Shown in pieces: positions 1,040 to 28,021 of a stretch of 30,282 nucleotides of DNA. Every line of letters starts with the position of its first letter. Position 1 is the first letter of the stretch. Under the pieces are notes generated by a model. The model saw only the letters and a list, made by a program, of their open reading frames with translations. It had not been told where the DNA came from and searched no databases. The position numbers and the translations under genes were made by a program. Origin of the DNA: Planctomicrobium piriforme (lineage in GTDB: Bacteria > Planctomycetota > Planctomycetia > Pirellulales > UBA1268); contig CAMAVC010000038.1 of NCBI GenBank assembly GCA_945861585.1, positions 1 through 30,282 of the forward strand, given 5' to 3'.

Positions 1040-1169
1040 GCGTCTCAAAAGACAATACCCTCGCGAAGAGGCGCGTGCCACCTGACAGAAACCGTTCGCC
1101 GAGGTGACGGCAGCCGCCAATGAAAACCGGTGTTTTTTTCGATCCGCCCGCGCGACTATCGTGCCGGGC

Positions 1170-2219
1170 ATGACGCACCACTCCGACATCGAACGCCAGA
1201 TCGAATTCGACTTTTTGCGGGCGACGGAGATCGCCGCGCTCAACACGCTCCAGTGGCTCGGCAAGGGGCAGAAGGAGCTCGCCGACGCGGCCGCCTGCGA
1301 CGCGATCCGCGGGATGTTCGATCTCGTAGAGATGTGCGGCGAGATCGCGATCGGGGAGGGGATCAAGGACGAGGCCCCGGGGCTCTTCAAGGGGGAGAAG
1401 GTGGGCACGTGGCGGGCAGGCGCACCGCGGTTTGAGATCGCGCTCGATCCGATCGACGGCACGACGAACGTGGCCAAGGGCATGCCGAACTCGCTCTCCT
1501 GCATCGCCGCCGGCCTCGTGACCGACGGCACGCCCTGCCTCCTCGACGTCCCCGCCTTCTACATGCAGAAGCTCGCCTACCCGCTCGAGGTGCGGAAGGC
1601 GTGGGTGGCCGACCCGACGCTACCGATCGACATCGACGCGCCGGTGGGCGAGGTGATCGACGTCACGGCCAAGATCCTCGGCAAGGAGGTGCGCGACGTG
1701 GTCGTCTCGATCCTCGACCGGCCGCGGAACGAGTCCTTCATCGACGAGGTGCGGCGGAAGGGGGCGGCGCTGCGGCTCATCCAGGATGGCGACATCGCCG
1801 CGGCGCTCGCGCCGGCGATGCGTACGAGCTCGATCGATCTCTACGTGGGCATCGGGGGCGCGCCCGAGGCCGTGCTCTCGGCGGCCGCCCTCCGCTGCCT
1901 CGGTGGTGGAATGCGGGCCAAGATCTGGCCGCGCGACGAGGCGGAGCGAAAGCATCTCGAGGCGATCGGCTGGGGCGACCGGCTGGGCACACAGTTTATG
2001 TCGCGGGATCTCGCCCGCGGCGACCACATCGTGTTCGCGGCCACCGGTATCAGCACCGGGCCGCTGCTCGAGGGTGTCGACGTGCGCGGCACGATCGCCA
2101 CCACGCATTCACTGATCTTGCGGGCCAAGAGCGGCACGGTGCGATTCGTGGAAGCCCACCACGATCTCGACCGCAAGACGATCCACCTGCGGAGCACGCA
2201 GGCCGAACGGCGGGTGTGA
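1170..2219 (+). CDS. glpX: Fructose-1,6-bisphosphatase class II (GlpX)
   Basis: Colinear with GlpX over its full length: ATEIAAL..WLGKGQK..AD.AA..A, IGEGE.DEAP...GEKVG, DPIDGT, and further. The ATG at 1170 matches the GlpX N-terminus. The track start at 1104 is a GTG extension. Confidence 0.85.
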   Translation: MTHHSDIERQIEFDFLRATEIAALNTLQWLGKGQKELADAAACDAIRGMFDLVEMCGEIAIGEGIKDEAPGLFKGEKVGTWRAGAPRFEIALDPIDGTTNVAKGMPNSLSCIAAGLVTDGTPCLLDVPAFYMQKLAYPLEVRKAWVADPTLPIDIDAPVGEVIDVTAKILGKEVRDVVVSILDRPRNESFIDEVRRKGAALRLIQDGDIAAALAPAMRTSSIDLYVGIGGAPEAVLSAAALRCLGGGMRAKIWPRDEAERKHLEAIGWGDRLGTQFMSRDLARGDHIVFAATGISTGPLLEGVDVRGTIATTHSLILRAKSGTVRFVEAHHDLDRKTIHLRSTQAERRV

Positions 2220-10944: not shown

Positions 10945-12219
10945 ATGAACACGTGGCGCGGTTTTTCCGGATGTGCCGGTGTAGCGTTGTTTGCTTTCGT
11001 GCCGACTGTCGTACTGGCCTCGAGCTTCGAGGACGGTTTGCAGGTCAGTGATCGGTCCGAACTGTTCTCGCCCGTGGCCGAATCCGTCCTCGTGGACATG
11101 GGAAACGATTCGGTGTCGCTCGATGGCACGGTCGGACTGCCGCACCAGCGTGAGTATGTCGCAGCGGACGAACAGTCGGTTCCGTGTGCCTCATGCCCAG
11201 TGTACGAGAGCGACGATTGCCCGCAGTGCATCGGCTGCATCGACGACGGCAGTCTGTCGGTCGCATCGTGCACCGATGCAGACTCGGCGCCGCGCCGTTC
11301 GCGAGCAGGGTGGATCAATCGCATCCTCGGGCCGGCCGATCCACGCTGGGTGGTTCAGGTCGACGCGCTCATGCTCTGGCAGGGCAACATCGCGAGTCGG
11401 CCCATTCTGCTCAACGCGGCAGGTCTCACGGCACTCGACGTGAACCAGGCACAGACGCCCGTCTCCGTGGGCACCCGATACGGAGTGTTGTTCAACCTCG
11501 ACGAGTGTTTCGCCATCGAAGGCAACTATTTTCAAGCAGGGCTCTTCGACGGTCGGGCCACGCCCGTGGGTGCGGGCCCGTTTACCCCGGCGAATGTCTA
11601 CGGAGTGGGTCCGCTCCTGGGGCAGGTCGATACAGCGCAGCTGACCAGCAGCGGCTTCATCAAGAGTGCCGAGCTGAATTGGCGCCGCCGGAATCCCGGA
11701 CCGTTGACTTGGCTGGCAGGCTTCCGGTGGGTCGAGTGGAATCAGGGCCTGGGTATGAATGGCACCTATTCGACCGGTCAACTTGGGAACGGCAATCTGG
11801 CCTCCAGCACGATCACGGGCAACGATCTCTACGGTGGGCAGGTGGGCGCGGATCTCAGTCTGTGGAACAACAAGACAGGCCCGATTACCGTCAATGGAAT
11901 CGGCAAAGCCGGCATCTTCTACAACAACGCGTTCCAACACTCAGCCGTCACGACGACGGCGAGTGGCACGAACGAAGTCGGGTCGGTCGCGGATCAGACG
12001 GCCTTCTTCGGCGAGGTGGGCGCGAACGCGAATGTCCGGCTCACGAACTGGCTGTCCTGGCGGGCCGGCTACTCGGTGTTCTGGCTGAGTGGTGTCGCGA
12101 TCCCCGCCGATCAACTATCGCAGGCGAACCTGGCCGTCTCACCTCCAACGGCGCTCATCAACACCAATGGCAGCGTGCTCCTGCACGGGGTGACGACGGG
12201 TCTCGAGGCGCGGTGGTAG
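10945..12219 (+). CDS. Outer-membrane beta-barrel protein, BBP7-like (planctomycete family), with Cys-rich N-terminal module
   Basis: The N-terminus MNTWRGFSGCAGVALFAFVPTVVLASS is a signal peptide. A 7-Cys segment (CASCPVYESDDCPQCIGCID..SC) follows. The rest is rich in Gly/Asn/Ser/Thr with an alternating beta-strand pattern. The C-terminus ..GLEARW has the terminal aromatic residue typical of the OMP beta-signal. Confidence 0.5.
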   Translation: MNTWRGFSGCAGVALFAFVPTVVLASSFEDGLQVSDRSELFSPVAESVLVDMGNDSVSLDGTVGLPHQREYVAADEQSVPCASCPVYESDDCPQCIGCIDDGSLSVASCTDADSAPRRSRAGWINRILGPADPRWVVQVDALMLWQGNIASRPILLNAAGLTALDVNQAQTPVSVGTRYGVLFNLDECFAIEGNYFQAGLFDGRATPVGAGPFTPANVYGVGPLLGQVDTAQLTSSGFIKSAELNWRRRNPGPLTWLAGFRWVEWNQGLGMNGTYSTGQLGNGNLASSTITGNDLYGGQVGADLSLWNNKTGPITVNGIGKAGIFYNNAFQHSAVTTTASGTNEVGSVADQTAFFGEVGANANVRLTNWLSWRAGYSVFWLSGVAIPADQLSQANLAVSPPTALINTNGSVLLHGVTTGLEARW

Positions 12220-12244: not shown

Positions 12245-12266
12245 GACAGGCTGAAGCCTGTCCTAC
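12245..12266 (-). repeat. REP-like element copy 7
   Basis: Exact reverse-orientation 22-mer between the convergent BBP7-like gene (ends 12219) and uvrA. Its CTA at 12263-12265 is the uvrA TAG stop. Confidence 0.9.
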
Positions 12267-15200
12267 ACGAGGGCGGTGAGGGCTTCGCCGGTGTGGCTGC
12301 GGAGCGGATCGCCAGCGGTCGGGACGATCTTCGTAGACACGGATGCACGTTCCCGCTGGGCATGGATCATGATGTCTTCCGGCGGGCCCTCGGCCACGAT
12401 CCTGCCGCCGCCGTCGCCTGCCTCGGGGCCCATGTCGATCACCCAGTCGGCCGCCTCGATGACCTCGAGGTTGTGCTCCACCACGAGCACCGTGTTGCCC
12501 GTCTCCACCAGCCGCTCGAGCACGTGGAGCAGTTTCTCGATGTCGGTGAAATGCAGCCCCGTCGTCGGCTCGTCGAGAATGTAGAGCGTGTTGCCCGTGC
12601 CCGGCTTCGCCAGCTCGCGGGAGAGCTTCACCCGCTGGGCCTCGCCGCCTGAAAGCTGCGGCGCCGGCTGGCCGAGCGTGATGTAGCCGAGCCCCACGTC
12701 GACGAGCGTGCCGAGGATCCGCGCGATCTGCGGCGCGGTCTCGAAGAATTGGTGCGCGTCGGCCACGCTCATCTCGAGCACGTCGGCAATGCTCTTGCCG
12801 TGCCACTTGGCGTGGAGCGTTTCAGACGAATAGCGGCGGCCCTTGCAGGCCTCGCACTGCACCCACACGTCGGGCAGGAAGTGCATCTCCACGCGGCGTT
12901 GGCCGAGGCCCTCGCAGGCCTCGCAGCGGCCGCCATCGACGTTGAAACTGAAGGTGCGCGGCGTGAACCCACGGGTGCGCGACTCCGGCACCTTCGCGTA
13001 GAGCTGCCGGATGTGGTCGAACACGCCCGTGTAGGTGGCCGGCGTCGAGCCGGGCGTCGAGCCGATCGACTCCTGGTCGACGAGGATCACCTTGTCGATC
13101 TGGTCGAGCCCCTTCACGGCATCGTGCTGCCCGGGCTGCTCGCGGGCTGCGTGGAGCCGGCGGGCAAGCGCCCGCCAGAGCACTTCGAGCACGAGCGACG
13201 TCTTCCCGGAGCCGCTCGGGCCCGTCACGGCCGTGAGCACGCCCAGCGGAAACCGGGCGTCGAGTCCTTTCAGCGTGCGATGGCGGATGCCCTTGATCTC
13301 GAGCCACTGCCCGGGCACCCGGCGGCCTGTCTGCCGCTTCTTCTCGAGCACCGCGTCGCAGGCCCGGCGCTTCTTGAGATAGGGCCCCGTCACGCTGGCC
13401 TTCATCGTCGCGAGCTTCGTGGGCGCGGCGTGGGCCACGATCATGCCTCCCTCGCGGCCGCTGCCGGGGCCGAAGTCGAGGGCGTGGTCGGCCGCGTTCA
13501 CCACGTCGCGGTCGTGCTCCACGACGACGAGCGTGTTGCCGAGGTCGCGGAGCTTACCGAGGGCGCGGATCAGGCGATGCGTGTCGCGTGGATGGAGGCC
13601 GATCGTCGGCTCGTCGAGCACGTAGAGCACGCCCGTGAGGCCGCTGCCCACCTGGGCCGCCAGGCGAATCCGCTGGAGCTCGCCCCCCGACAGGCTCCCG
13701 GCGGGCCGGGCCATGTCGAGATACTCGAGCCCCACGTCCACGAGGAAGTTCACCCGCGAGACGAGCTCGCGGAGCAGATCGCCCGCGATCTTCTTGTCGG
13801 CGTCCGAGATCTCGATGGCCGCGAGTTCCTGCTGCAGCCGGCCGAGCGGCATCCGGCACCAGACGTCGAGCGAGCGGCCCCAGAGGGTGACGGCGCTTGC
13901 CTCCTCGGCGAGTCGGCTGCCACCGCAGTCGCTGCACGGTACCTCGCCCATCACCGCGTCGACTTTCGAGCGCAGGCCGACCACGAGCCGGGCCGCCTCC
14001 TCGCAGGCGTTTTCGAGGCCTTTGAATTGGAACGCGAACCACGGGGGGGCATCCTCTCGGCTCACGCCTCGGGCTTTCTCGGAGGAGGGCCGCGGCACCT
14101 CGATCCAGCGGTCGCCCGTGCCCTCGAACAGCACGCGCTGCTGGAGGCCCGAGAGATCGGCGAGCGGCACGTCGGCCGGGAGGCCGGTGGCCGCACACAG
14201 GGCCTCGAGCATCGCCCGGCTGGTAGCGCCGCAGTCCTTGCGGTCGAGGCTCGGCCACAGATCGAGCGCGCCCTCGGCCAGCGACTTCGTCGCGTCGCGC
14301 ACAAGCGACGCATGATCCACGCCGGTGCGCGTGCCGAGCCCATCGCACGCGGGGCACCAGCCGAGAGGGCTGTTGAATGAAAACTGCCGCGGCTCCAGCG
14401 GCTTGAACCCCCGGCCGCACGAGCGGCAGGCGAGCCGGCGGCTCATCACCTCGACCGGCCAGTCGGGCTCCGGCAGCGGCTTGCCGTCGGGCCCGTCGGC
14501 AACGCGGGCCACGAGCATCGTGCCCGCGCCGGCGTCGAAGGCCGCCTCCACGCTCTGGGCAAGCCGGCTGCGCTCGGCGGGGCTTGCCGTGACGCGGTCG
14601 ATCACGATCTCGATCCTATTTTTCCGCTTCCGGTCGAGCGACGGCTTCTCGTCCAGGTGCACCGTCTGCCCGTCGATCCGCACCCGCACGTAGCCCGCCG
14701 CCCGCAGGCTCGCGAACAAGCTCTCCGGTGTCTGCCCGACCCGGAGTTCGACTGGCGCGAGCAGGAGCATCCGCGTGCCCGACGGACATTCGAGCAGCCG
14801 CCCGACGGTTTCATCGACGCTCTGGGCTCCGACCTCGAGGCCGCAGTCAGGGCAGTGCATGGCGCCGAGCCGTGCGGCGAGCACGCGAAAATAGTCGTAC
14901 ATCTCCGTGAGCGTGCCGACCGTCGAGCGGGGCGTGCTGCCGCTCGACCGCTGCTCGATCGCCACGGCCGGCGACAGCCCCTCGATCCGCTCGAACACCG
15001 GCTTCGGCACCTGCCCCACGAACTGCCGGGCGTAGGGGGAGAGGCTCTCGACATACCGCCGCTGCCCCTCAGCGTAGAGCGTGTCGAACGCGAGCGACGT
15101 CTTCCCGCTACCACTCGGCCCGCAGCAGACCGTCATCGCGCCGCGCGGGATGTCGGCATCCACCTGTTTCAGATTGTGCTGGGCTGCGCTGCGGACCATG

Positions 15201-18200
15201 ATCGCCGGCGGGCCCGGATCGCGCGACGCTTTTTCAACCTGCGCCATGAGCGCGGCGGCATCGACGGGCTTCTTGCGGCGCACGGCGGTCTTCGCCGCCG
15301 GCTTCTTGGCTGCGGCCAGAATCGGTACGAGTGCCTTGCCGGTGCACGAGGCCTTCACCTTCGCCACCTGCTCCGGTGTGCCCTCGGCCACGATCCGTCC
15401 GCCGCCAGCGCCTCCTTCCGGCCCGAGGTCGATCACCCAGTCGGCCCGCTTCACGACGTCGAGGTTGTGCTCCACCACGAGCACCGTGTTGCCCGCCTCC
15501 ACGAGCCGTTCGAGCACCGCGAGCAGTTGCCGCACGTCGGCCATGTGCAGCCCCGTCGTCGGCTCGTCGAGAATGTAGAGCGTCTTGCCGGTCGAGCGCT
15601 TAGCCAGTTCGCGCGAGAGCTTCACCCGCTGGGCCTCGCCGCCCGAGAGCGTCGGGGACGGCTGGCCGAGATGCAGGTAGTCGAGGCCCACGTCGTGCAG
15701 CGTTTGGAGCTTGCGCGCGATGTCAGGGGCATCGGCGAACAGTTCGAGGGCGTCGCCGATCTCCATGTTCAACAGTTCGGCGACGTTCTTCCCCTTCCAG
15801 CGGACCTCGAGGGTGTCCTTCGCGAACCGGGCCCCGTCGCACACGTCGCAGGTCACCCACACGTCGGCGAGAAAATCCATGTCGAGCCGCGTTGAGCCGT
15901 TGCCTTCGCAGGCCTCGCAGCGGCCGCCCGACACGTTGAAGCTGAACCGCCCGGCCTTCCAGCCGCGCTTCTTCGCCTCGGGCAGCATCGTGAACAGCGC
16001 ACGGATGTCGTCCCAGACCTTCACGTAGGTCGCCGGATTCGACCGCGGCGTGCGGCCGATCGGCGACTGGTCGATCACGATCACCTTGTCGAGCTGGTCG
16101 GCGCCGGTGATCGCGTCGAACTCGCCCGGCACTGCGGCCTCGCTTCCGAGCAGCCGCCGCAGCTCGGGCTCGAGCACGTCGCCCACGAGCGAACTCTTGC
16201 CGCTGCCCGACACGCCGGTCACGCACACGAGAAGCCCGAGCGGGATCTCGACATCGATCCCCTTCAAGTTGTTGTGACGCACGCCGGAGAGTTTCAGCGT
16301 CTGGCCCGTGGGCTTGCGGCGTTTTTCCGGCACCTCGATCGCTTCGCGTCCGGCGAGAAACGCGCCCGTCAAGCTGCGGTCACTCGCCGCCACGTCGGCT
16401 GGCGTGCCCGCCGCCACGACTTCGCCGCCCCGCTTGCCCGGGCCTGGCCCGAAGTCCACCACCCAGTCGGCCGCGCGGATCGTGTCTTCATCGTGCTCCA
16501 CGACGACCACCGTGTTGCCCTTGTCGCGGAGCGCCTCGAGGGCGCCCAAGAGCTTGACGTTGTCTCTGGGATGCAGCCCGATCGAGGGCTCGTCGAGGAC
16601 GTAGAGCACGCCCGAGAGCCCCGAGCCGATCTGCGCGGCCAGGCGAATCCGCTGGCTCTCGCCGCCGGAAAGCGTGGGGGCTTTGCGGTCGAGCGCGAGA
16701 TAGCCGAGGCCCACCTGATCGAGAAACTCGAGCCGCGAGCGGATCTCCTTGAGGAGTTCCGTGGCGATCAAGGTCTGCGTGCCGTCGAGAACGAGGTCGG
16801 AGAGAAATTCCCGCGCGTCCGCGATCGGCAGGGCACACAGTGCGTCGAGCGAGAGCGAAGGCGGTCCCGCGCGTCGGGCCTGGCTCGTGATCCGCACGGC
16901 CCGGGCCTGCGGTGAGAGCCGTGCGCCCTGGCAGGCATGGCAGGGGGTCACCCGCATCAGCTTTTCGAGCATCCGCCGGATGATGCCGCTCTTGGCGTTC
17001 CGCCACTTGGCGGCCAGGAGTGCGAGGATGCCTTCAAACTTTGTCTTCGCGCCGCGCTCGGCCCGGCCGCGCTTCCACGCGAGCTTGATCTCCTCGACGC
17101 CCGTGCCCGAGAGCCAGATCTTCTTCTGGGCAGGGGTGAGCTTTTCCCAGGGGGTTTCGAGGAGCGTGCCGGGGGCGAGCTTCTTCTTCGCTTCGGCGTG
17201 CGCGGCCACGCCCGTGAACAGCCGCCGCATCCAGCGCGGCATGTCGCGGAACGTGCCGAGCACGCCCATGCAGCCCTTCTTGAGCGACTTCGTCGGGTCG
17301 GTGACGAGCTTCTCGGGATCGATGCCGTAGATGTCGCCAAGGCCGTCGCACACAGGGCAGGCACCGATGGGGCTATTGAAACTGAAGAGCTGCGGCTCGG
17401 GCGTCGAGTAGCTCACGCCACAGGCCACGCACGCATAGCGGCTCGAAAGCACGAGGTCGCCTCCACGATCGCTGGCACCGTCGGCACCGGGATCGATGGC
17501 CACGATCACTTGGCCACCGCCGGTGCGCAGTGCGAGGTCCACCGCCTCGGCCAGCCGGCTGCGGCCGGCGGCGTTGGCCACGATCCGGTCGATCACGACG
17601 TCGATCGAATGCTTGAACTGCTTTTCGAGTGGCGGCGGATCCTCCACCCGCACGATCCGGCCGTCGACCCGGGCCCGCGTGAAGCCCTGTCGCACGAGGT
17701 CGGTGAACAGATCGCGGTGCTCCCCCTTTTGGTCGCGCACCAGCGGCGCGAGCACGAGCACCTGCTCGTCGGCCCGCTGGGCGAGAATTCGCTCCACGAT
17801 CTGGTCGCGCGGCTGCGCCTCGAGCACGGCATCGCACTCGGGGCAGTGGGCCGTGCCGACCCGTGCGTAGAGCACGCGCAGGAAATCGTGGATCTCCGTC
17901 ATCGTGGCCACGGTCGACCGCGGGTTCGTGCCAGCCGACTTCTGGGCGATCGAGATCGAGGGCGAGAGGCCTGTGACGCTGTCGACGTCGGGCCGGGGCA
18001 ACTGCCCGAGGAACTGTCGGGCGAACGTGGAGAGGCTCTCGACGTAGCGCCTTTGCCCCTCGGCATAGAGCGTGTCGAAGGCGAGGCTCGACTTGCCCGA
18101 GCCGCTCACGCCCGACAGGCACACGAGCCGACCCCGTGGCAGGGCCACCGTGACGTCGCGCAGGTTGTGCTCGCGGGCACCTCGAACGACGATCGGCGGA

Positions 18201-18208
18201 ACGTGCAT
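12263..18208 (-). CDS. uvrA: Tandem-fused double UvrA (two complete excinuclease ABC subunit A units, four ABC ATPase modules) in one 1981-aa ORF
   Basis: Each half contains a Walker A ([28 protein letters not shown] in the first, [28 protein letters not shown] in the second), Zn-finger CxxC pairs and a UvrB-binding-like segment ([20 protein letters not shown].., [19 protein letters not shown]..). Each half also has signatures [12 protein letters not shown] / [12 protein letters not shown] and [17 protein letters not shown] (twice), plus Walker B YVLDEP / [11 protein letters not shown]. The halves are joined by a Lys/Ala-rich linker ([18 protein letters not shown]). They are clearly diverged paralogs, not identical copies. 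The stop TAG at 12263-12265 lies inside REP copy 7. Confidence 0.9.
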   Translation of the reverse strand: [1981 protein letters not shown]

Positions 18209-18228
18209 ACGCCCATTGTAGAGAGCGC

Positions 18229-18257
18229 TTTACACTGCGGGGACCGTGCCGTACGAT
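18229..18257 (+). promoter_or_regulatory. Sigma-70-like promoter candidate for tRNA-Ala (TTTACA-17-TACGAT)
   Basis: TTTACA at 18229-18234, a 17-nt spacer and TACGAT at 18252-18257 lie about 40 nt upstream of the tRNA 5' end. Assignment is by hexamer similarity only. Confidence 0.35.
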
Positions 18258-18299
18258 CAAATTCCTCGATCAGGCCGCGGAAAACCGCGGCCGGCGTTC

Positions 18300-18372
18300 G
18301 GGGCGGTAGCTCAACTGGGAGAGCGCGGCGTTCGCAATGCCGAGGTTGGGAGTTCGATCCTCCTCCGCTCCA
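18300..18372 (+). tRNA. tRNA-Ala (anticodon CGC)
   Basis: GGGGCGGTAGCTCAACTGGGAGAGCGCGGCGTTCGCAATGCCGAGGTTGGGAGTTCGATCCTCCTCCGCTCCA folds as a cloverleaf. The 7-bp acceptor stem has a G3:U70 pair, the Ala identity element. The anticodon loop is TTCGCAA with anticodon CGC. A T-loop TTCGATC and discriminator A are present. CCA is not encoded. Confidence 0.9.
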
Positions 18373-18377
18373 GTTTT

Positions 18378-18412
18378 AGGCCTGCACGGCCATCCATGGC
18401 CCGTGCAGGCCT
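18378..18412 (+). terminator. Perfect 12-bp GC-rich hairpin directly after tRNA-Ala
   Basis: AGGCCTGCACGG-(11 nt loop containing CCATGG)-CCGTGCAGGCCT lies 6 nt after the tRNA 3' end. A second imperfect 14-bp hairpin at 18415-18450 (CCCTGCGGAGGGAAA..TTTCCCTCGCAGGG) and a third 8-bp hairpin at 18478-18496 follow. There is no U tract. Confidence 0.4.
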
Positions 18413-18533
18413 TGCCCTGCGGAGGGAAAGCCGAGGTTTCCCTCGCAGGGCGGCGCTCGCACCTCCGGGCTCGCGTGGCTGCCGCGGGGCGGCAGCTTCC
18501 GCGGGGTGGCGGCTTGTGGCGGCGGGGTGCTCG

Positions 18534-19160
18534 ATGGTGAACGATTCCGCCATGACGACGAACGTCGCAGTAGATCCGTCCACCGCGCTCATGTTGCGGG
18601 TGCGCGATGGCGACGCGCTTGCGTTCGAGGAGCTCGTGGCGCTCTGGCAGGACCGGCTCGTCACGTTGTTTCGTCATCACACCGGTGACCATTCGATCGC
18701 CGAGGACTTGGCCCAGGAGGTGTTTCTGAGGGTCTATCGCGCGCGGGCCACCTATCGGCCGACCGCGAAGTTCACGACGTGGATCCACACGATCGCCAAC
18801 AACGTGTCGAGCGACCTGAGGCAGCGGGCCTACCGCCGCAAGGAGCGGGGGGTGCCGCAGAACGTGTCGGCCTCGACGAGCGCCCTCGGCCTCGAACACC
18901 TCGCCGTGGCGGCGAGCGGCCTCAGGCCCGCCCGGCAGGCCGCTCGCAGTGAACTGTGCGACGTCGTGCAGGAGGCGATCGCCTCGCTCTCCGACAACCA
19001 GCGGATGGCCGTCTTGCTCGCGAAGTTCGAGCAGTGTTCCTACGACGAGATCGCCGCGGCGATGGGGCTTACCGTGCCGGCGGTAAAGTCGCTCTTGTTT
19101 CGGGCCCGCGATCAACTGCGCGCCAAGCTCGAGCCCTACGAGCGGGAAGGCACACGATGA
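18534..19160 (+). CDS. ECF-family RNA polymerase sigma-70 factor
   Basis: Region 2 (DLAQEVFLRVYRA..FTTWIHTIANN) and region 4 HTH (SYDEIAAAMGLTVPAVKSLLFRARDQLR) are present. The upstream part of the track ORF overlaps the tRNA and is rejected. An alternative ATG lies at 18552. Confidence 0.8.
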   Translation: MVNDSAMTTNVAVDPSTALMLRVRDGDALAFEELVALWQDRLVTLFRHHTGDHSIAEDLAQEVFLRVYRARATYRPTAKFTTWIHTIANNVSSDLRQRAYRRKERGVPQNVSASTSALGLEHLAVAASGLRPARQAARSELCDVVQEAIASLSDNQRMAVLLAKFEQCSYDEIAAAMGLTVPAVKSLLFRARDQLRAKLEPYEREGTR

Positions 19161-20908: not shown

Positions 20909-22708
20909 CTACTCGACGAGCTTCTCGAACCGCTCGAGATTGCGCTGAATCGTGCGGTTGAAGGGTTCCGCACGCTTGGCGAGCCGCTGGGCGCGGATCG
21001 CCGCGGCGGGTCGGCCGGCGGCGGCATGGCAGTGGGCGAGCGTGTCGAGGTAGCTCGCGTTGTCAAACGACTTGACGAGCGACAGCTTCGAGTAGCGGGT
21101 CGCCTTGTCGACGTCGCCCTCGGTGTTGGCGACGAGCCAGGCATACTCGTTGTAGGCCGTCGTGTCGTCGGGCACGGCCTGGATGTCTTCCTCGAGTCGC
21201 GCGAGTGCCGCCTTGATCCGCCTGACCGCATCGGCCCGCTGCTCCTCGGTGTTGTCGGGCAAGGCGTAGAGCGCGATCAGCGCGTCCACGTCCTTCGGGT
21301 AGGCGGCGAGCGCCTGTTCCACGGCTGCACGGCATCCGGCCATGTCGCCGCGCCGGGCGCGATCACAACTCTCGAAAAAGTGCATGCGCGAGCGATGCGA
21401 GCGGGGATCGCGGCCGAGCTGATCGCCGGCTCCTGGCGTGTCGTCGCCGAAGAACCGGTGCACGCACCGTGCCGCCTCGTCGTCGCGCTCGACGTCGTGG
21501 AGAAGCTCACCGAGCATCGTCGCCGTCAGCCCCCGCTCGGCGATGGCGAGATCGGTGTCGTCGAGAATGGCTTCGTACGACCGCGTGGCCCATTCGACCC
21601 GGCCCCACTTGGCGAGCATCACGGCCGCCTGCAGCCGTTCCAGGAAGCCGTCGTGCGCGAGGGCGGCGAACGCGGCCTCGAACCGTGCGTGTGCCGCGGT
21701 TCCACGGCCCCGGGCCTCCTCCGCGGAGGCGATCGCGTGAGCAACGAGGGGGCTGCGGCCGGCGAGATCGGGCACGGCGAGCACCGCTTCGACCGCCTCC
21801 GGCAGCCCGAGTTGCACGGCCCAGGCGAGCGTGTCGACGCATGCGGCCACCTGCCGGTCGGGATCGTTGAGGGCCGCCGCACGTTCGAGGAGCGCCTTGG
21901 CAAGGCTGAGCGCCGCCTCGCGCCGGCCCGCGGCGAGCAACATCTGCACGTGGCAGCGCTCGAAGATCTGCAGGGTTCGTCCGACCACCACGCGCTCGTC
22001 GCTGTCGTCGTGGTCGAGGCCGGGCGGAGTCTCGTCGGCTGCCGGCCGCTGTAGGTCGCCGAGGGCGACCGCGGCCGCCTCGAGCGCGGCGTCGTGGGCG
22101 GCGCTTGCGTCGGGATCGGTGAAGGCGACGAGCGCCGCCAGAAACCTCGCCGCCGGCCGGGTGCTCGGGCCCAGCCCCGCTTCGATCCGGCCACGCATCA
22201 CGGGCCAGGCTGGATCGTCGGGCCACCACTCCCGAGCCAGAAGCGCGGCCGCCACCCGCGAGCCTGCCGTCGACGGATCGAGCCGCGTCACGCGGGCCAG
22301 CGGCTCGATGCCGGCGTCGTCGTCGACCCGCAAGAGCCGATGCATCGCCTGCACACGCTCGTCGAATCCGCGCCGCTTGAATCGTGACAGGAGCTTCACG
22401 ACCTCCGGGGGGTCGTGCGGCATCTCGAAGGGAATCGTCTCCACGAGCCAGCGGGCCCGCAGCGCGACCTCGAGGTCGCCACTCGTCTCCGCGGCCGCGA
22501 GGAGCGCGTCGATCGCCGTCGGCCCAAGTGCCTTGAGCTCGGCCGCCGCGGCCTCGCGCCTGTGATAGTCGTCGTCGCCGAGGCCGGCGATGAGCCCGGG
22601 GAGCCGGTCTTGGCCACCGGTGTCGGCGCCCGCCGGCACTGCCAGGAGCGCGAGGCAGACGCAGGTCGCGACGGTGGCGGACGGCAGGCGGAGGAGGCCC
22701 GGGAGCAT
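20909..22708 (-). CDS. Secreted alpha-helical repeat (TPR-like) protein
   Basis: The N-terminus MLPGLLRLPSATVATCVCLALLAVPAGA is a signal peptide. The body is an Ala/Leu-rich helical repeat throughout. It lies upstream of and in the same orientation as the hydrolase, with a 30-bp gap. Confidence 0.45.
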   Translation of the reverse strand: MLPGLLRLPSATVATCVCLALLAVPAGADTGGQDRLPGLIAGLGDDDYHRREAAAAELKALGPTAIDALLAAAETSGDLEVALRARWLVETIPFEMPHDPPEVVKLLSRFKRRGFDERVQAMHRLLRVDDDAGIEPLARVTRLDPSTAGSRVAAALLAREWWPDDPAWPVMRGRIEAGLGPSTRPAARFLAALVAFTDPDASAAHDAALEAAAVALGDLQRPAADETPPGLDHDDSDERVVVGRTLQIFERCHVQMLLAAGRREAALSLAKALLERAAALNDPDRQVAACVDTLAWAVQLGLPEAVEAVLAVPDLAGRSPLVAHAIASAEEARGRGTAAHARFEAAFAALAHDGFLERLQAAVMLAKWGRVEWATRSYEAILDDTDLAIAERGLTATMLGELLHDVERDDEAARCVHRFFGDDTPGAGDQLGRDPRSHRSRMHFFESCDRARRGDMAGCRAAVEQALAAYPKDVDALIALYALPDNTEEQRADAVRRIKAALARLEEDIQAVPDDTTAYNEYAWLVANTEGDVDKATRYSKLSLVKSFDNASYLDTLAHCHAAAGRPAAAIRAQRLAKRAEPFNRTIQRNLERFEKLVE

Positions 22709-22788
22709 CGCACATCTCTCGACGGCGGGTGACGCGAGTCGTTGATCCCAGCCTACGGCCCGCGTGTTGCCCGGGGCAAGCGGGTGGA

Positions 22789-23370
22789 TCAGGCCGCGTC
22801 CGGTTCGATACCGAGATCACGGATCGTGAGGAGCGACTCGAGGCGAATTCCCCGGGCCGCGAAGGCCGCCTCGGCACCGGCGAGCCTGTCGATCACCGTG
22901 ATCACCCGGTCGACGACGAGGCCGAACTCCTGGGCCCGATCGATCGCGAGCAGCGACGAGCCGCCGGTGGTCGTGACGTCTTCGACGATCACGACCCGCT
23001 GGCCCGGCTCCACCGGACCTTCGACATAGCGCTTCGTGCCGTGATCTTTCGGTTCCTTGCGGATCATGAACCCCTTGAGCGGCCGGCCCGCGACGCCCGC
23101 CATGGTCACGACGGCACCGGTGATCGGATCGGCACCGATCGACATGCCGCCGACAGCGTCGGGGAACTGGGGCTGTGCGGCCAGCCGGGCGAGGATCGCC
23201 TGTCCCACGAGCATCGCCCCTTCGGCGTCGAGAACCACCTGCTTGGCATCGAGGTAAAAACTCGCCTGCCGGCCCGAAGCCAGCGTGAATGTGCCGCGTT
23301 TGAGCGCCTTGCGGGCGACAAGGGCGACGAGCCGGGCGGTCAGGTCGGCCGTGGAAGCATCATTATTCAT
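22789..23370 (-). CDS. pyrE: Orotate phosphoribosyltransferase
   Basis: The PRPP-binding motif VVIVEDVTTTGGS is present. The length of 193 aa and overall colinearity fit PyrE. Confidence 0.85.
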   Translation of the reverse strand: MNNDASTADLTARLVALVARKALKRGTFTLASGRQASFYLDAKQVVLDAEGAMLVGQAILARLAAQPQFPDAVGGMSIGADPITGAVVTMAGVAGRPLKGFMIRKEPKDHGTKRYVEGPVEPGQRVVIVEDVTTTGGSSLLAIDRAQEFGLVVDRVITVIDRLAGAEAAFAARGIRLESLLTIRDLGIEPDAA

Positions 23371-23400
23371 CGTGGGCGGAGTATAACAGCGGTTGGTTTT

Positions 23401-23428
23401 TTGACTCGCCGCGGCGTGGTTTTAGAAT
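23401..23428 (+). promoter_or_regulatory. Sigma-70-like promoter candidate for the nfeD-floA operon (TTGACT-16-TAGAAT)
   Basis: TTGACT at 23401-23406, a 16-nt spacer and TAGAAT at 23423-23428 lie in the pyrE/nfeD divergent intergenic region. The -10 hexamer overlaps the first ATG (23427). The second in-frame ATG (23436) lies at the expected transcription start. Confidence 0.35.
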
Positions 23429-25586
23429 GCCCGACATGCCCCGCCACCGGCTTTTTTTCGGGCTCTTGTGCGCGTTCGTCATGGCGGCGTGCGCGACCGT
23501 GCCGTGCGTGCGGACTGCCCGCGCCGAAGCCGACCGGCCCGTGCCCGCGGCCACGGTCGTGGTCAGGCTGCCGATCACCGGCACCCGCGACACGCAGGTC
23601 AAGGCGGCGATTCTGCGGCAGCTCGACGGTCTGCGGAGTCAGGGATCAAGGCGCGGCGTGCTCGTGCTCGAATTTCGTCCGACCGACGACGACGGCGCCC
23701 TCCCCACCGATTTTGGACGGGCCTTCGAACTGGCGCGATTTCTCGGCGACGGTCGGCTCGACGGCGTGAAGACGGTGGCATTCCTCCCGGAGGGAATTCG
23801 CGGCCATGCGGTGCTCGCCGCCCTGGCATGCGAGGAGATCGTGATGCCGGCCGATGCCGTGCTTGGGCCTGCGAACGCGGAGGAGCCGGCTGTCGACGAC
23901 GCGATGCGCGCGGCCTACGCCCAGGTGGCATCCCGGCGGAAGACCGTGCCGGCGGCACTCGCCCTGGCACTGCTCGATCCGGCCGCGAAGGTGGCCCGGG
24001 TGGCGACCGACGACGGCGAGCGGTTCGTCGAGGCGCGGGATCTCGACGCCGTGAAGCGCGAGGCAGCGGTGCTCTCGGTGGACGAGGTCGGGCCCGTGCC
24101 GCTCGTGCTCGCCGGACGGCGGGCCCGCGAGCTCGGGCTCGTGCGTCTCCTGGCCGGCACTCCCGCCGAGCTCGCCCGCGGTCTGGGAGTCGATGAAAAG
24201 TCGCTGGCTGTTCTCGCGGCCGGGGATGGTGGCTGGAACGCCGTGCTGGTCGGCCTCTCCGGGCCGATCACGGCCGATGCGGTCGCCCGCGCCAAGCGCG
24301 GCATCGACGAGGCGGTGACGGGTGGCGCGAACTTCGTGTGCCTGAGGATCGACGGCCCCGGCGGCGACCCCGAGCAGAGCCTCGTGCTTGCGACCTTCCT
24401 CGCCGGGCTCGATCCGGCCCGGGTGCGCACCGTGGCCTACGTGCCGCGGGAGGCACGGGCCGATGCGGCGCTCGTGGCCCTGGCCTGCGACGAGCTCGTG
24501 ATCGCGCCGACGGCCGTGCTCGGCGGCGAGGGAGCCGCCACGGTCGATCCGCGCCGCTCGGAGGCGCTGGCTGTCGCGTGGCGCGAAGGAGTGGCCAAGC
24601 GGCGCGGGCGGTCGTGGTCGCTTCCTGTGGCGCTCGTGGCACCCGGGGTCGTGGTGCATCGGGCGGTGCAGCCGGCGAGCGGGCGGACCGAGTATTTCAG
24701 CGACGACGAACTCCTGGCTCGCGACGACCGCGATTCATGGAAGCTCGGAGACGACGTGGGCGTCGGGCCGATCGAACTCTCCGGCCGGTCGGCGGAGGCG
24801 CTGGGTCTCGCGACCCACGTGGTCGACGGGTTTCCGGCGGTCGTGGCGACCTACGGCCTCCCGGCCGACATCGCGACGCAGGAGCCGGGCTGGGCCGACC
24901 GGCTGCTCGACGCGCTGGCGAGTCCGGGCATGGCGTGGCTGTTGCTCCTCATCGGTGGTGCCGGGCTGTACATCGAGATGCACACGCCCGGCATCGGCCT
25001 CGGCGGCTTCGTGGCGATGGTGGCGTTTATCGTCTACTTCTGGAGCCAATACCTGCACGGCACGAGCGGCTGGCTCGAGGTGATGTTGTTTCTCGCCGGC
25101 ATCTTCTGCCTCGCCGCGGAGATCTTCGTCCTGCCTGGCTTCGGCGTGCTGGGCCTGGGCGGCGGGCTGCTCGTGATCGCAGCGCTCGTGCTCGCGAGCC
25201 AGTCGTTCGTGCTGCCGACGAACGACTATCAGATCCGCCAGCTGCAATGGTCGCTGCTCGGAATCCTCGGCGCCGCGGTGGGCGTGGCCCTGATCGCCAC
25301 GCTCGTGCGGCGCTGGCTGCCGCGGGCGCCGGGGCTGCGGCATGTGCTGCTCGAGCCGCCGGCCGCCGAGGAGAGCCTCGACGACCCACTCATGGATCTC
25401 GTGGGCGCAGCGGGCGTCGCGACCACGCGGCTCGTGCCGGCCGGCAAGGCGCGGATCGACGGCAGGCTGGTCGACGTGACCACCGACGGCCAGCTCGTGG
25501 AGCCTGGCGAGGCGGTGCGGGTGGTCGACGTGCGTGGTCGACGGATCGTGGTGCGGCCCGCGGACGACGGGGCAGGTGCACGATGA
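23427..25586 (+). CDS. nfeD: NfeD-family membrane protein, long form: two tandem ClpP/crotonase-like domains, multi-TM region, C-terminal OB-fold
   Basis: The signal/TM region is followed by two repeated ClpP-like modules (..GHAVLAALACEEIVMPADAVLG.. and ..ADAALVALACDELVIAPTAVLG..). A hydrophobic block MAWLLLLIGGAGLYIEMHTPGIGLGG..FVLPGFGVLGLGGG follows. A C-terminal NfeD OB domain (GKARIDGRLVDVTTDGQLVEPGEAVRVVDVRG) ends the protein. An alternative ATG lies at 23436 (see promoter finding). Confidence 0.75.
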   Translation: MPDMPRHRLFFGLLCAFVMAACATVPCVRTARAEADRPVPAATVVVRLPITGTRDTQVKAAILRQLDGLRSQGSRRGVLVLEFRPTDDDGALPTDFGRAFELARFLGDGRLDGVKTVAFLPEGIRGHAVLAALACEEIVMPADAVLGPANAEEPAVDDAMRAAYAQVASRRKTVPAALALALLDPAAKVARVATDDGERFVEARDLDAVKREAAVLSVDEVGPVPLVLAGRRARELGLVRLLAGTPAELARGLGVDEKSLAVLAAGDGGWNAVLVGLSGPITADAVARAKRGIDEAVTGGANFVCLRIDGPGGDPEQSLVLATFLAGLDPARVRTVAYVPREARADAALVALACDELVIAPTAVLGGEGAATVDPRRSEALAVAWREGVAKRRGRSWSLPVALVAPGVVVHRAVQPASGRTEYFSDDELLARDDRDSWKLGDDVGVGPIELSGRSAEALGLATHVVDGFPAVVATYGLPADIATQEPGWADRLLDALASPGMAWLLLLIGGAGLYIEMHTPGIGLGGFVAMVAFIVYFWSQYLHGTSGWLEVMLFLAGIFCLAAEIFVLPGFGVLGLGGGLLVIAALVLASQSFVLPTNDYQIRQLQWSLLGILGAAVGVALIATLVRRWLPRAPGLRHVLLEPPAAEESLDDPLMDLVGAAGVATTRLVPAGKARIDGRLVDVTTDGQLVEPGEAVRVVDVRGRRIVVRPADDGAGAR

Positions 25587-26282: not shown

Positions 26283-27296
26283 ATGCCCACGTTGATTGTC
26301 CTCGGCCTCGGCATTCTCGCCATGGTCGTCGTGTTCGGACTCCTCGCCCGCTACCTGCGGCTCTGGCTGCAGTCGTATGCGTCGAGCGCGGGGATCGGCC
26401 TCTTCGATCTCGTGGCGATGAGCTTCAAGAAGGTGAACCCCACCGTGATCGTGCGCAGCAAGATCATGGCGGTGCAGGCCGGGCTCGGAGATTCTTCTGG
26501 TCTCACCTGCCAGGCCCTCGAGGCCCACTATCTCGCCGGCGGACGCGTGCCGCTCGTCGTGCAGGCGCTGATCGCAGCCAACAAGGCGAAGATCAAGGAA
26601 CTCGACTGGAAGCTCGCCACCGCGATCGACCTGGCCGGCCGCAACGTGCGGGAGGCGGTGCAGACGAGCGTCTATCCGAAGGTGATCGACTGCCCCGGCA
26701 AGAACAGCGGCCGCGAGTCGCTCGACGCCGTCGCGAAGAACGGGATCCAGCTCAAGGTGCGGGCCCGTGTGACGGTGCGCACCAACCTCAACCAGCTGAT
26801 CGGCGGCGCCACCGAAGAAACGATCGTGGCTCGGGTCGGCGAGGGCATCGTGTCGGCGATCGGCTCGGCCGAGCGGCACACCGACGTGCTCGAAAACCCC
26901 GATGTGATCTCGAAGACGGTGCTCGCCCGCCGCCTCGACGCCAACACGGCGTTCGAGATCGTGTCGATCGACATCGCCGATATCGACGTCGGAGCCAACA
27001 TCGGCGCCCGTCTCCAGGCCGATCAGGCCGAGGCCGACACCCGCGTGGCCCGGGCCAACGCCGAGGGACGGCGGGCGATGGCGGTGGCCAAGGAGCAGGA
27101 GATGATCGCAGGCATCGAGGAGAGCCGCGCGGCGCTCGTCGAATCGGAGGCGGAGGTGCCCAAGGCGATCGCCGATTCACTGGCCACCGGCAGCCTCGGC
27201 ATCGTCGATTACTACAAGCTCCGCAATCTCCAGGCCGACACCGATATGCGGCGCACGATCGCGGGGGGCGGGACGCCGGCTCCTGTCGTGCCATGA
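26283..27296 (+). CDS. floA: Flotillin-like protein FloA (SPFH domain, YqfA/UPF0365 family)
   Basis: The N-terminal TM is followed by [32 protein letters not shown].. and a coiled C-terminal region, colinear with FloA. GGAG precedes the ATG. Confidence 0.8.
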
Positions 27297-28021
27297 TCGT
27301 TTCGCTCGCGTCCCTGCAGATGCCCGTCGTGTTCGCCGCCGGCATCGACTGGCTGGAAGCGATCCTGCCGATCCTGTTCGTCGGTTTCTGGATCCTGTCG
27401 CAGGTGTTCGCCCTGTTCCGCCGCGTGGCGGGCGGCCCGGCCCGGCCGCCGGTGGTGCGGGTTCCCGACCTTCCGCGCGACGAGGCCGCCATGCCCCGGC
27501 CGCCCGTGCGGCCCGAGGCCGATCCACGGGCCGAACTCGACAAGCAGATCGCCGACTTCTTGCGCCAGGTGACGGGAGGAGCACCGGCCGCCGAGCCCGT
27601 GCAGCCACCCACTCGGCAGCCTGCGTCACGGCCAGAGTCACCGTCGCAACCGCGCACCGCGAAGCCCGCGCTCCCGCCCCGGCCTGCTCCGACGGTTCAG
27701 CCGCCGCGGCTCGCGCCGTCATCGACGCGGCTGGCGGGAGAACGCCCGCAGCCGGGCGGCGAACGGCACGTGGGTACGCTCGACGTGCAGACCTCGGACG
27801 TGGCGCGACACGTGAAGGACGCCTTCAAGGAGCAGTTGGGGCATCTGCACTCTGGTCTCGAGCAGCCTGGCGTGGAGGCGGCCCAGACCGAAGCATCAAG
27901 GCGGGCGACACGTGGGCGAGTGTCCGCCCGCGAGCTTGTCGAGGCCGCCCGCGATCCAGCGACGATCCGGCAGGCGATCCTGCTCCGCGAGATCCTCGAG
28001 CGGCCCGTCGACCGGTGGTGA
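27293..28021 (+). CDS. Hypothetical membrane-anchored proline-rich protein, translationally coupled to floA
   Basis: The ATG at 27293 overlaps the floA TGA stop (ATGA). One N-terminal TM ([25 protein letters not shown]) is followed by a long Pro/Ala-rich linker and a C-terminal charged domain. Confidence 0.45.

What the first reader, a model, noticed from the sequence alone, without database searches (positions are those of the whole stretch)
12263..18208. 1981-aa tandem UvrA-UvrA fusion with two complete, diverged class-I-like units
Canonical UvrA is about 940-1000 aa. Here one ORF encodes two full units. Each unit has both ABC modules, the zinc modules, and a UvrB-binding-like segment (..[17 protein letters not shown].. 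and ..[15 protein letters not shown]..). The halves are clearly paralogous (for example [10 protein letters not shown] versus [10 protein letters not shown]). I did not count identity, but by eye they are neither identical nor very distant. This argues against an assembly duplication and for an old fusion. Since UvrA works as a dimer, a covalent pseudo-dimer is mechanistically plausible. From memory, fused or duplicated UvrA paralog classes have been described in a few lineages, but I cannot verify which; there, the N-terminal unit is usually said to lack the UvrB-binding domain, whereas here both keep it.
Basis: partly seen in the sequence, partly recalled or inferred. Interest (0 to 1): 0.55.

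Follow-up and report, generated by a model that had tools for sequence, protein, structure and literature searches.

The report
Planctomycete double-length (tandem) UvrA gene
This is a real 1981-residue gene that joins two complete, diverged copies of the DNA-damage sensor UvrA in one protein; the arrangement is standard in planctomycete bacteria and has already been reported, so the finding is correct but not new.

Summary
The ORF at 12263-18208 (minus strand) exists as described. It is 1981 aa with no internal stop and holds two full UvrA units joined by a linker of about 37 residues. The units are 48% identical in protein and about 68% in DNA, so this is not an assembly duplication. Each unit alone passes NCBI's curated UvrA cut-off. 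Each has both ABC ATPase modules, three zinc modules, a UvrB-binding domain and an insertion domain. The same single-ORF layout appears in 171 species genomes (mostly labelled Pirellulales or Planctomycetia) and in at least 120 protein clusters. [quoted passage not shown] Tandem UvrAs are also common elsewhere, including Chlamydiales, Chloroflexota and Heimdallarchaeota, plus a family in which both units lack the UvrB-binding domain. One added observation: the units are consistently asymmetric. The C unit has lost two near-invariant arginines of the GRTPRSN motif in 125 of 125 relatives, and the N unit has an unusually basic insertion domain (net charge about +14). All four ATPase sites and both UvrB-docking residue pairs are kept. 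The likeliest mechanism is a covalent, asymmetric N:C pseudo-dimer acting in nucleotide excision repair; this is inferred, not shown. Verdict: already known, low to moderate interest.

The parts
12263..18208 (-). Whole tandem uvrA-uvrA ORF, 1981 aa plus stop codon
   Evidence: ORF list; translation without internal stop; coding-type GC3 of 0.89; homologues of 1960-2150 aa at 77-95% identity
15314..18208 (-). N-terminal UvrA unit (aa 1-965), the more canonical copy
   Evidence: NF001503 UvrA equivalog, 1321.9 bits against a cut-off of 1147; 1074 bits to solved UvrA 9gxk over aa 6-965; 51% identity to E. coli UvrA
15203..15313 (-). Inter-unit linker (aa 966-1002): a basic Ala/Lys/Arg/Pro-rich stretch followed by the conserved [20 protein letters not shown] motif
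   Evidence: Lies between the two UvrA matches; linker length is 35-64 aa (median 42) across 121 relatives, variable at its start and conserved at its end
12266..15202 (-). C-terminal UvrA unit (aa 1003-1981), more diverged but complete
   Evidence: NF001503, 1158 bits against a cut-off of 1147; 948 bits to 9gxk; 46% identity to E. coli UvrA; evolves slightly faster than the N unit within the family
17495..17815 (-). UvrB-binding domain of the N unit (aa 132-238)
   Evidence: Pfam PF17760, 119.7 bits, profile positions 1-107 of 109; positions equivalent to E. coli R216/E222 are R218/D224
14504..14824 (-). UvrB-binding domain of the C unit (aa 1129-1235)
   Evidence: Pfam PF17760, 103.1 bits, profile positions 1-107 of 109; R1215/E1221 are kept in 125 of 125 relatives, but the conserved KG (E. 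coli K159/G160) is replaced by GQ
16961..17320 (-). Insertion domain of the N unit (aa 297-416), unusually basic
   Evidence: Pfam PF17755, profile positions 1-110 of 110; net charge +15 here and +14.1 (sd 2.2) across the family, against 0 in E. coli and -6 in the 9gxk protein
14069..14317 (-). Insertion domain of the C unit (matched part, aa 1298-1380), diverged
   Evidence: Pfam PF17755, 40.5 bits, only profile positions 1-79 of 110; net charge -4
16043..16054 (-). N unit RTPR (R719, R722) of the conserved [15 protein letters not shown] motif in signature domain II
   Evidence: Equivalent to E. coli R695/R698; kept in 125 of 125 N units
13049..13060 (-). C unit STPG (S1717, G1720): the same motif with both arginines lost
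   Evidence: Arginine at 0 of 125 C units at either position (S/T/V/N at the first, G/S/A/L at the second). R698 is otherwise near-invariant in the units of other tandem UvrA families, except the C units of the family that lacks both UvrB-binding domains

Best explanation
This is the uvrA gene of a Pirellulales-type planctomycete, in the double-length form normal for that lineage. It encodes the damage-sensing subunit of UvrABC nucleotide excision repair. Shown: one polypeptide carries two complete class-I UvrA units, each with two intact ABC ATPase sites, three zinc modules, a UvrB-binding domain and an insertion domain. The arrangement is old and under purifying selection. Inferred: canonical UvrA works as a head-to-head homodimer held together by its ATP-binding-I domains. 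Here the two units most likely fold back on each other, across the 35-64 residue linker, to form an intramolecular N:C pseudo-dimer of about 215-220 kDa. That pseudo-dimer would bind DNA, hydrolyse ATP at four sites and dock two UvrB molecules as a UvrA2 dimer does. It appears to be built asymmetrically. The C unit has lost two near-invariant arginines of the signature-II GRTPRSN motif, plus R730 in the close relatives. The N unit has gained a strongly basic insertion domain. The two halves have therefore probably divided the DNA-contact work between them. My confidence that this is a genuine tandem UvrA is about 0.97; my confidence in the intramolecular pseudo-dimer mechanism is about 0.6. 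The single confidence value given (0.65) is for the whole statement including the inferred mechanism.
For: Identity: each half passes the curated UvrA equivalog cut-offs on its own (NF001503: 1322 and 1158 bits against 1147; TIGR00630: 1284 and 1117 against 730). Each half matches solved UvrA structures end to end. Pfam finds a UvrB-binding domain and an insertion domain in each half.

The gene is real and conserved: the same single ORF occurs in 120 listed protein clusters at 77-95% identity, all 1961-2149 aa. 171 species genomes encode a relative, and the 80 loci fetched are at 75-92% identity.

[quoted passage not shown] In Tuwongella immobilis all four UvrABCD subunits were detected by proteomics (PMC8567305).

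Old duplication: the N-C distance (0.57) is about the same as the N-E. coli distance (0.51). N units and C units of the planctomycete family form separate sister clades.

All four ATPase sites are intact: 100 of 121 relatives have exactly 4 Walker A, 4 LSGGE, 4 Walker B, 4 H-loop and 12 CxxC motifs, and the rest differ by one regex match. Positions equivalent to E. coli K37, K646, D513, D857, E858 and H890 are kept in 125 of 125 copies of both units.

Pairing is plausible: the dimer-interface residues listed for the solved UvrA (R54, Y55, S58, F66, G80, L81, P83; PMC12796330) are present in both units. The UvrB-surface residue R216 is kept in both units. E222 is kept in all C units and is E or D in 113 of 125 N units (residue roles from PMC3025350; counts).

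Fixed asymmetry: arginine at R695 and R698 is present in 125 of 125 N units and 0 of 125 C units. R730, one of four DNA-binding arginines mutated together in PMC3025350, is T in 120 of 125 C units. The N unit insertion domain has a net charge of +14, against -1 for the C unit. A fixed, complementary asymmetry of this kind is easiest to explain if N always partners C.
Against: No structure, stoichiometry or activity data exist for any tandem UvrA that I could find. I could not model the full-length protein because the prediction tool is capped at 1200 aa, and I did not measure the C-terminus to N-terminus distance in a solved dimer. The claim that the linker can span the gap therefore rests on rough geometry only. 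The role of R695/R698 in DNA binding comes from my memory of Croteau et al. 2008 (B. caldotenax K680/R691) and could not be checked in the held literature. Recent work proposes that the UvrA dimer interface must loosen or come apart for hand-off to UvrB (PMC11985968). A covalent tether would have to allow this. The neighbour-joining tree has short internal branches and only two stand-alone UvrAs as reference.
Confidence: 0.65

Rival explanations
1. Intermolecular assembly. The two units of one chain do not pair with each other. Instead, chains associate N with N and C with C, or in a domain-swapped N:C' manner. The result would be a complex equivalent to four or more UvrA protomers, with more UvrB docking sites and more DNA-binding surfaces.
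For: Both units keep the same ATP-binding-I interface residues, so sequence alone does not exclude N:N, C:C or N:C' pairing. The T. immobilis UvrABCD subunits were found only in the SDS-soluble fraction, unlike those of E. coli, which could reflect large assemblies.
Against: A C:C pair would lack all four GRTPRSN arginines, and an N:N pair would carry two hyper-basic insertion domains. The strictly complementary asymmetry fits fixed N:C pairing better. Tethering by a 35-64 residue linker makes intramolecular pairing far more likely than intermolecular pairing at cellular concentrations (inference).
Confidence: 0.2
2. Fusion of a canonical UvrA (N unit) with a specialised paralogue (C unit). 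The C unit would have a different main job, for example docking a different partner such as Mfd, recognising a different lesion class, or regulating the N unit, rather than acting as the second protomer of a normal dimer.
For: The C unit is the faster-evolving and less canonical copy. It keeps 367 of 560 canonical-invariant columns, against 411 for the N unit, and has 45 family-fixed departures against 23. These include K159G/G160Q in its UvrB-binding domain, loss of R695/R698/R730, and a diverged insertion domain. Stand-alone UvrA paralogues with functions outside NER are known, such as the class II proteins Ecm16 and DrrC.
Against: The C unit still passes the UvrA equivalog cut-off. It keeps its UvrB-binding domain with R216/E222, all ATPase motifs, all zinc modules and the beta-hairpin Phe of the MHFLPD motif. 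Class II proteins lack the UvrB-binding domain; this unit does not. No stand-alone uvrA was seen within 10 kb either side in the window or in 80 related loci. The literature treats the fusion as the planctomycete UvrA.
Confidence: 0.12
3. Artefact. Two adjacent uvrA genes were merged by a sequencing or frameshift error, or a single gene was duplicated by mis-assembly.
For: None beyond the unusual length.
Against: The halves are only 48% identical in protein and about 68% in DNA. The same uninterrupted ORF is present in 171 independently assembled species genomes and in 120 or more protein clusters. The end of the linker is conserved in sequence. A planctomycete proteome study reports the fusion and detected all four UvrABCD subunits.
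Confidence: 0.01

Closest known systems
Planctomycete fused UvrA (Tuwongella immobilis and other Planctomycetes; Front Microbiol 2021, PMC8567305, Figure 13)
   Same: A single gene encodes two uvrA copies, giving a protein twice the length of E. coli UvrA. It is a planctomycete lineage and is annotated as excinuclease ABC subunit A. The window protein's nearest relatives are Pirellulales and Planctomycetia MAGs at 75-95% identity with the same layout.
   Different: There is no difference in kind. The paper gives one sentence and a domain and phylogeny figure. It does not describe the N/C asymmetry, the linker or a mechanism. I could not align directly to the T. immobilis sequence because it was not identifiable among the proteins I fetched.
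Canonical class I UvrA homodimer (E. coli; G. stearothermophilus 2R6F/3UWX; M. tuberculosis 3ZQJ; the 9GXK series)
   Same: Each unit has the full class I domain set and motifs and is 46-51% identical to E. coli UvrA. The expected job is the same: damage sensing and UvrB loading in NER.
   Different: There are two protomers in one chain, so the stoichiometry is fixed and the dimer cannot fully dissociate. The two 'protomers' also differ in sequence: the C unit lacks R695/R698/R730 and the N unit has a hyper-basic insertion domain. A homodimer is symmetric by construction.
Chlamydial long UvrA (NCBIfam NF001885 / PRK00635, 1809-position model; e.g. Chlamydiales MAG protein P0128, 1885 aa)
   Same: It is also a tandem UvrA-UvrA in one ORF with UvrB-binding domains in both units.
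   Different: It is a separate family. The window protein scores 1265 bits against a cut-off of 3054. Chlamydial units fall in different clades of the tree, and their C units keep R698 in 17 of 17 cases. Whether the two fusions share an origin is unresolved.
Class II UvrA (D. radiodurans UvrA2 2VF7; Ecm16 7SH1; DrrC) and the tandem family in which both units lack the UvrB-binding domain (about 1600-1680 aa)
   Same: The ABC-ABC core and the dimeric logic are the same. The tandem version is also a covalent double UvrA, and its C unit also often lacks R698.
   Different: Class II proteins lack the UvrB-binding domain and act outside UvrB-dependent NER. Both units here retain that domain.

Membership tests
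Class I UvrA (NCBIfam NF001503 / TIGR00630 equivalogs) | Whole-protein score above the curated equivalog cut-off | tested here: met
   N half: 1321.9 and 1284.5 bits. C half: 1158 and 1117.2 bits. Cut-offs are 1147 and 729.8.
Class I UvrA (NCBIfam NF001503 / TIGR00630 equivalogs) | Two ABC ATPase modules per unit with Walker A, Walker B, signature and H-loop | tested here: met
   Four of each motif in the ORF. Catalytic positions are kept in 125 of 125 copies of both units. The 4/4/4/4 pattern is present in 100 of 121 relatives.
Class I UvrA (NCBIfam NF001503 / TIGR00630 equivalogs) | UvrB-binding domain present, with the R216/E222 surface | tested here: met
   PF17760 in both halves at 119.7 and 103.1 bits. 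R is kept in both units; E is kept in all C units, and is E or D in 113 of 125 N units (D in the window protein). Residue roles are from PMC3025350. Actual binding to UvrB was not tested.
Class I UvrA (NCBIfam NF001503 / TIGR00630 equivalogs) | Insertion domain and three zinc modules | tested here: met
   PF17755 in both halves, although the C half matches only profile positions 1-79 of 110 at 40.5 bits. There are six CxxC pairs per unit.
Class I UvrA (NCBIfam NF001503 / TIGR00630 equivalogs) | Conserved DNA-contact arginines of signature domain II (E. coli R695, R698, R712, R722, R724, R730) | tested here: inconclusive
   The N unit keeps all of them, with R722 as K. The C unit keeps R712/R722/R724 but has S, G and T at positions 695, 698 and 730. 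The functional consequence is unknown.
Class I UvrA (NCBIfam NF001503 / TIGR00630 equivalogs) | Functions in UvrABC nucleotide excision repair as a dimer | not testable with these tools
   The only evidence is indirect: proteomic co-detection of the UvrABCD subunits in T. immobilis.
Planctomycete tandem UvrA (PMC8567305) | Two uvrA units in one ORF, in a planctomycete genome | tested here: met
   Single ORF. The nearest genomes are Pirellulales, Planctomycetia and Planctomycetaceae MAGs. N units and C units cluster with those of other family members.
Chlamydial long UvrA (NF001885 / PRK00635) | Score above the curated cut-off of 3054 bits | tested here: not met
   1265.5 bits for the whole protein.
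Class II UvrA (UvrA2 / DrrC / Ecm16) | Absence of the UvrB-binding domain | tested here: not met
   Both units contain PF17760. Matches to 2vf7 and 7sh1 are much weaker than matches to class I structures.

The most novel reading that the evidence does not exclude
The planctomycete tandem UvrA is an obligate asymmetric pseudo-heterodimer in which the two units have divided the work. The N unit, with its intact GRTPRSN arginines and an insertion domain of about +14 net charge, would act as the main DNA clamp. The C unit, with those arginines lost but its ATPase sites, zinc hairpin and UvrB-docking surface intact, would act mainly as the sensing or hand-off half. This would be a bacterial NER counterpart of the shift from MutS homodimers to MSH2-MSH6 heterodimers. 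Partial loss of the same arginines in the C units of the tandem family that lacks both UvrB-binding domains hints that such asymmetry arises repeatedly once the two protomers are tethered.
Probability: 0.35. Interest if true: 0.5.

Novelty: already known. Interest (0 to 1): 0.27.

Why it matters
As a discovery it matters little. The fusion is the normal planctomycete UvrA, it is annotated as such in public databases, and it is mentioned in print. It does have some value as a natural experiment for an open question in bacterial NER. Current structural models propose that the UvrA dimer interface loosens or separates during lesion hand-off to UvrB (PMC11985968). They also leave open why a symmetric dimer is used to read a lesion on one strand. 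A naturally tethered, sequence-asymmetric UvrA with four intact ATPase sites would let each 'protomer' be mutated on its own. That is difficult to do with a homodimer.

Tried and rejected
- Assembly duplication or a merged gene pair: rejected on the divergence of the halves and on conservation of the single ORF across genomes.
- Membership of the chlamydial long-UvrA equivalog: rejected on score.
- A class II-type unit in either position: rejected, since the UvrB-binding domain is present twice.
- Repair-related gene context: none. The neighbours are a BBP7 porin-like gene, a tRNA-Ala, an ECF sigma factor, a hydrolase and SPFH/NfeD/FloA genes.
- A second uvrA nearby: none in the window or within 10 kb either side in 80 related loci. 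The rest of the genome could not be examined.
- Literature on UvrA classes and tandem forms: five searches found only the 2021 planctomycete paper. The Goosen and Moolenaar classification, Pakotiprapha 2008 and Jaciuk 2011 are not held. Two searches on residues R691/K680 gave nothing usable.
- Taxonomy of the other tandem families: cluster look-ups named only a few, namely Chlamydiales, Chloroflexota, Heimdallarchaeota and 'bacterium HR30'.
- Single or multiple origin of the tandem families: the neighbour-joining tree of 274 units is too poorly resolved at depth, and has too few stand-alone UvrAs, to decide.
- Structure prediction: not attempted. The 1200-aa cap excludes the full chain, and each ATP-binding-I domain is split in sequence, so no sub-construct would test N:C pairing.


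Full report
**Observation.** The window has about 69% GC. The mechanical ORF list gives 12263..18208 on the minus strand, 1981 aa, ATG start. The translation is uninterrupted. Codon-position GC (0.70/0.48/0.89) marks it as a real gene, unlike the many shadow ORFs that overlap it.

The protein has four Walker A motifs (aa 33, 665, 1030, 1663), four LSGGE signatures, four Walker B motifs, four H-loops and twelve CxxC pairs. The two halves align collinearly at 48.2% identity over 965 columns. Their DNA is only 67-69% identical in the alignable stretches.

**What each half is.** Pfam finds one UvrA_inter domain (the UvrB-binding domain) and one UvrA_DNA-bind domain (the insertion domain) in each half. 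The C half's insertion domain is a weaker, partial match, covering profile positions 1-79 of 110.

Each half alone passes NCBI's curated UvrA equivalog cut-offs. NF001503 gives 1321.9 and 1158 bits against 1147. TIGR00630 gives 1284.5 and 1117.2 bits against 729.8. Each half matches solved class I UvrA structures end to end, at 1074 and 948 bits to 9gxk. Matches to the class II proteins 2vf7 and 7sh1 are much weaker. Identity to E. coli UvrA is 51% for the N unit and 46% for the C unit.

The 1809-position model for the long chlamydial UvrA (NF001885) is not met: 1265 bits against a cut-off of 3054.

**Is the fusion real and conserved?** A search of the 5.8-billion-protein collection returned 7998 proteins at E <= 1e-50. 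The best 120 clusters are 77-95% identical, are all 1961-2149 aa long, and are named 'excinuclease ABC subunit A/UvrA' from Planctomycetia or Planctomycetes MAGs. A scan of one genome per species found 171 stretches encoding a relative. The 80 loci fetched are 75-92% identical. Most are labelled Pirellulales, Planctomycetia or Planctomycetaceae, and all have the tandem gene. The window therefore comes from a Pirellulales-type planctomycete, and the double UvrA is that lineage's normal gene.

**Prior knowledge.** A full-text search found Front Microbiol 2021 (PMC8567305). [quoted passage not shown] It also reports all four UvrABCD subunits in the Tuwongella immobilis proteome. The core finding is therefore already published. 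I found no biochemical or structural work on any tandem UvrA.

**Wider distribution.** An exhaustive HMMER search with the C half against 1.84 billion 50%-identity representatives put tandem UvrAs of about 1500-2340 aa at the top, because both units contribute to the score. I split each protein into units against E. coli UvrA and scored the presence of the two accessory domains. Among the 150 best representatives, complete two-unit proteins fell into these layouts:
- 46: class I plus class I, with a weak or absent second insertion domain.
- 26: class I plus class I, both complete.
- 27: both units lack the UvrB-binding domain.
- A few mixed types.

Named members include Chlamydiales, Chloroflexota and Heimdallarchaeota.

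**Age of the duplication.** I built a neighbour-joining tree of 274 units from 615 well-aligned columns. The planctomycete N units form one clade and the C units a sister clade. The N-C distance (0.57) is about the same as the N-E. coli or N-9gxk distance (0.51). The duplication therefore predates the diversification of this family. Deeper relationships are unresolved, including whether the planctomycete and chlamydial fusions share an origin.

**Anatomy of the junction.** The linker is 35 aa by the family-wide measure used, and aa 966-1002 in the coordinates used here. Across 121 relatives it is 35-64 aa long, with a median of 42. Its first part is a variable, basic stretch rich in Ala, Lys, Arg and Pro. 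Its end is the conserved motif [20 protein letters not shown], which runs into the first beta-strand of the C unit. The C-terminal tail keeps the canonical S-H-T-G motif ([10 protein letters not shown]) after a variable insert.

**Functional residues.** Positions equivalent to E. coli K37, K646, D513, D857/E858 and H890 are kept in 125 of 125 copies of both units. The full motif count is present in 100 of 121 relatives, and the rest differ by one regex match.

The dimer-interface and DNA-wedge residues reported for the solved UvrA are R54, Y55, S58, Q65, F66, G80, L81 and P83, with Y62 as F in the N unit (PMC12796330). They are present in both units. The UvrB-interaction residue R216 is kept in both units. 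E222 is kept in all C units and is E or D in 113 of 125 N units (residue roles from PMC3025350; counts).

**Asymmetry, the added observation.** Of the 560 columns where E. coli and the 9gxk protein agree, the N consensus keeps 411 and the C consensus keeps 367. The C unit has 45 family-fixed departures and the N unit has 23. The most striking differences are these:
- Both arginines of the [15 protein letters not shown] motif (E. coli R695 and R698) are present in 125 of 125 N units and 0 of 125 C units.
- R730 is T in 120 of 125 C units. It is one of four arginines whose joint mutation abolishes DNA binding and NER (PMC3025350; counts).
- R698 is otherwise near-invariant in the units of other tandem families. 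The exception is the C units of the family that lacks both UvrB-binding domains.
- The conserved K159/G160 of the UvrB-binding domain is replaced by G/Q in the C unit.
- The N unit's insertion domain has a net charge of +14.1 (sd 2.2). The C unit has -1.1, E. coli 0 and the 9gxk protein -6.
- The C unit evolves slightly faster: 83.8% against 86.0% mean identity to the window protein, and lower than the N unit in 108 of 122 pairs.

From memory, the B. caldotenax equivalents of K684/R695 (K680/R691) were shown by Croteau et al. 2008 to mediate DNA binding. I could not check this in the held literature.

**Mechanism.** Canonical UvrA acts as a head-to-head dimer whose interface is formed by the ATP-binding-I domains. 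Each UvrB contacts the UvrB-binding domain of one protomer and the signature-II domain of the other (PMC12796330 and PMC11985968).

Four features point to an intramolecular N:C pseudo-dimer acting as the NER damage sensor, with built-in asymmetry in its DNA contacts:
- Both units are complete.
- Both keep the interface residues.
- The tether is conserved.
- The complementary asymmetry is fixed across the family.

This is an inference; I put it at about 0.6. The main rival is intermolecular pairing of tandem chains (about 0.2). It is disfavoured because C:C pairs would lack all four motif arginines. A specialised, non-canonical role for the C unit (about 0.12) is disfavoured by its retained UvrB-docking surface and ATPase sites. 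An artefact is excluded.

One open point remains. Current models have the UvrA dimer interface loosening or coming apart at hand-off, and a tether would have to permit this.

**Context.** The gene appears to be monocistronic. The downstream gene is convergent (a BBP7 porin-like ORF at 10945-12219). A tRNA-Ala(CGC) lies at 18300-18372 on the opposite strand, 91 bp upstream, followed by an ECF sigma factor gene. No repair genes are nearby. No second uvrA lies in the window or within 10 kb either side in 80 related loci. Whether the genome has another uvrA elsewhere cannot be tested here.

**Verdict.** However, the feature is the ordinary and already reported UvrA of planctomycetes, and one of many tandem UvrA families. 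The only new element is the conserved N/C asymmetry, which yields a testable hypothesis. Novelty: already known. Interest: about 0.27.

Noticed in passing
window 18300-18372 (+): A tRNA-Ala (anticodon CGC) lies 91 bp upstream of the uvrA start and is transcribed divergently. The mechanical ORF 18246-19160 overlaps it, so the ECF sigma factor encoded there (Sigma70_r2 begins at aa 130 of that ORF) must start downstream of the tRNA.
   Followed up: partly
window 18215-18220 (- strand): A TACAAT sequence resembling a -10 box ends 6 nt before the uvrA ATG, and there is no obvious Shine-Dalgarno sequence (tacaatgggcgtATG). The mRNA could be leaderless or nearly so. The consensus promoter scan found nothing on this strand.
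   Followed up: no
window 14-1531 (-), 23427-25586 (+), 26283-27296 (+): Three membrane-scaffold genes lie in one 30-kb window: an SPFH/Band_7 protein, an NfeD-family protein of 719 aa, and next to it a flotillin-like FloA (465 bits).
   Followed up: no
proteins P0124, P0134, P0128 (not in window): Tandem UvrAs with two class-I-like units and both UvrB-binding domains also occur in Chloroflexota (1915 aa), Heimdallarchaeota archaea (1916 aa) and Chlamydiales (1885 aa). Whether these fusions arose independently is unresolved.
   Followed up: partly
proteins P0177, P0178 and 25 other representatives (not in window): A separate tandem family of about 1600-1680 aa has no UvrB-binding domain in either unit. 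Its C units also frequently lack the R695/R698 arginines (R698 kept in only 5 of 36), a parallel to the planctomycete C unit.
   Followed up: partly
proteins P0121 (aa 1986-2334) and P0122 (not in window): The nearest 50%-identity representatives of the planctomycete family carry an extra C-terminal region of about 340 aa. It contains two repeats of an MPWxxxGxRWH-type motif and has no Pfam match (best E-value 0.26). The window protein lacks it.
   Followed up: partly
window 20909-22708 (-), 22729-23769 (+), 27293-28021 (+), 28321-29805 (+): Several long ORFs have no Pfam match at E <= 0.001; two of them have coding-type GC3. They were not examined further.
   Followed up: no
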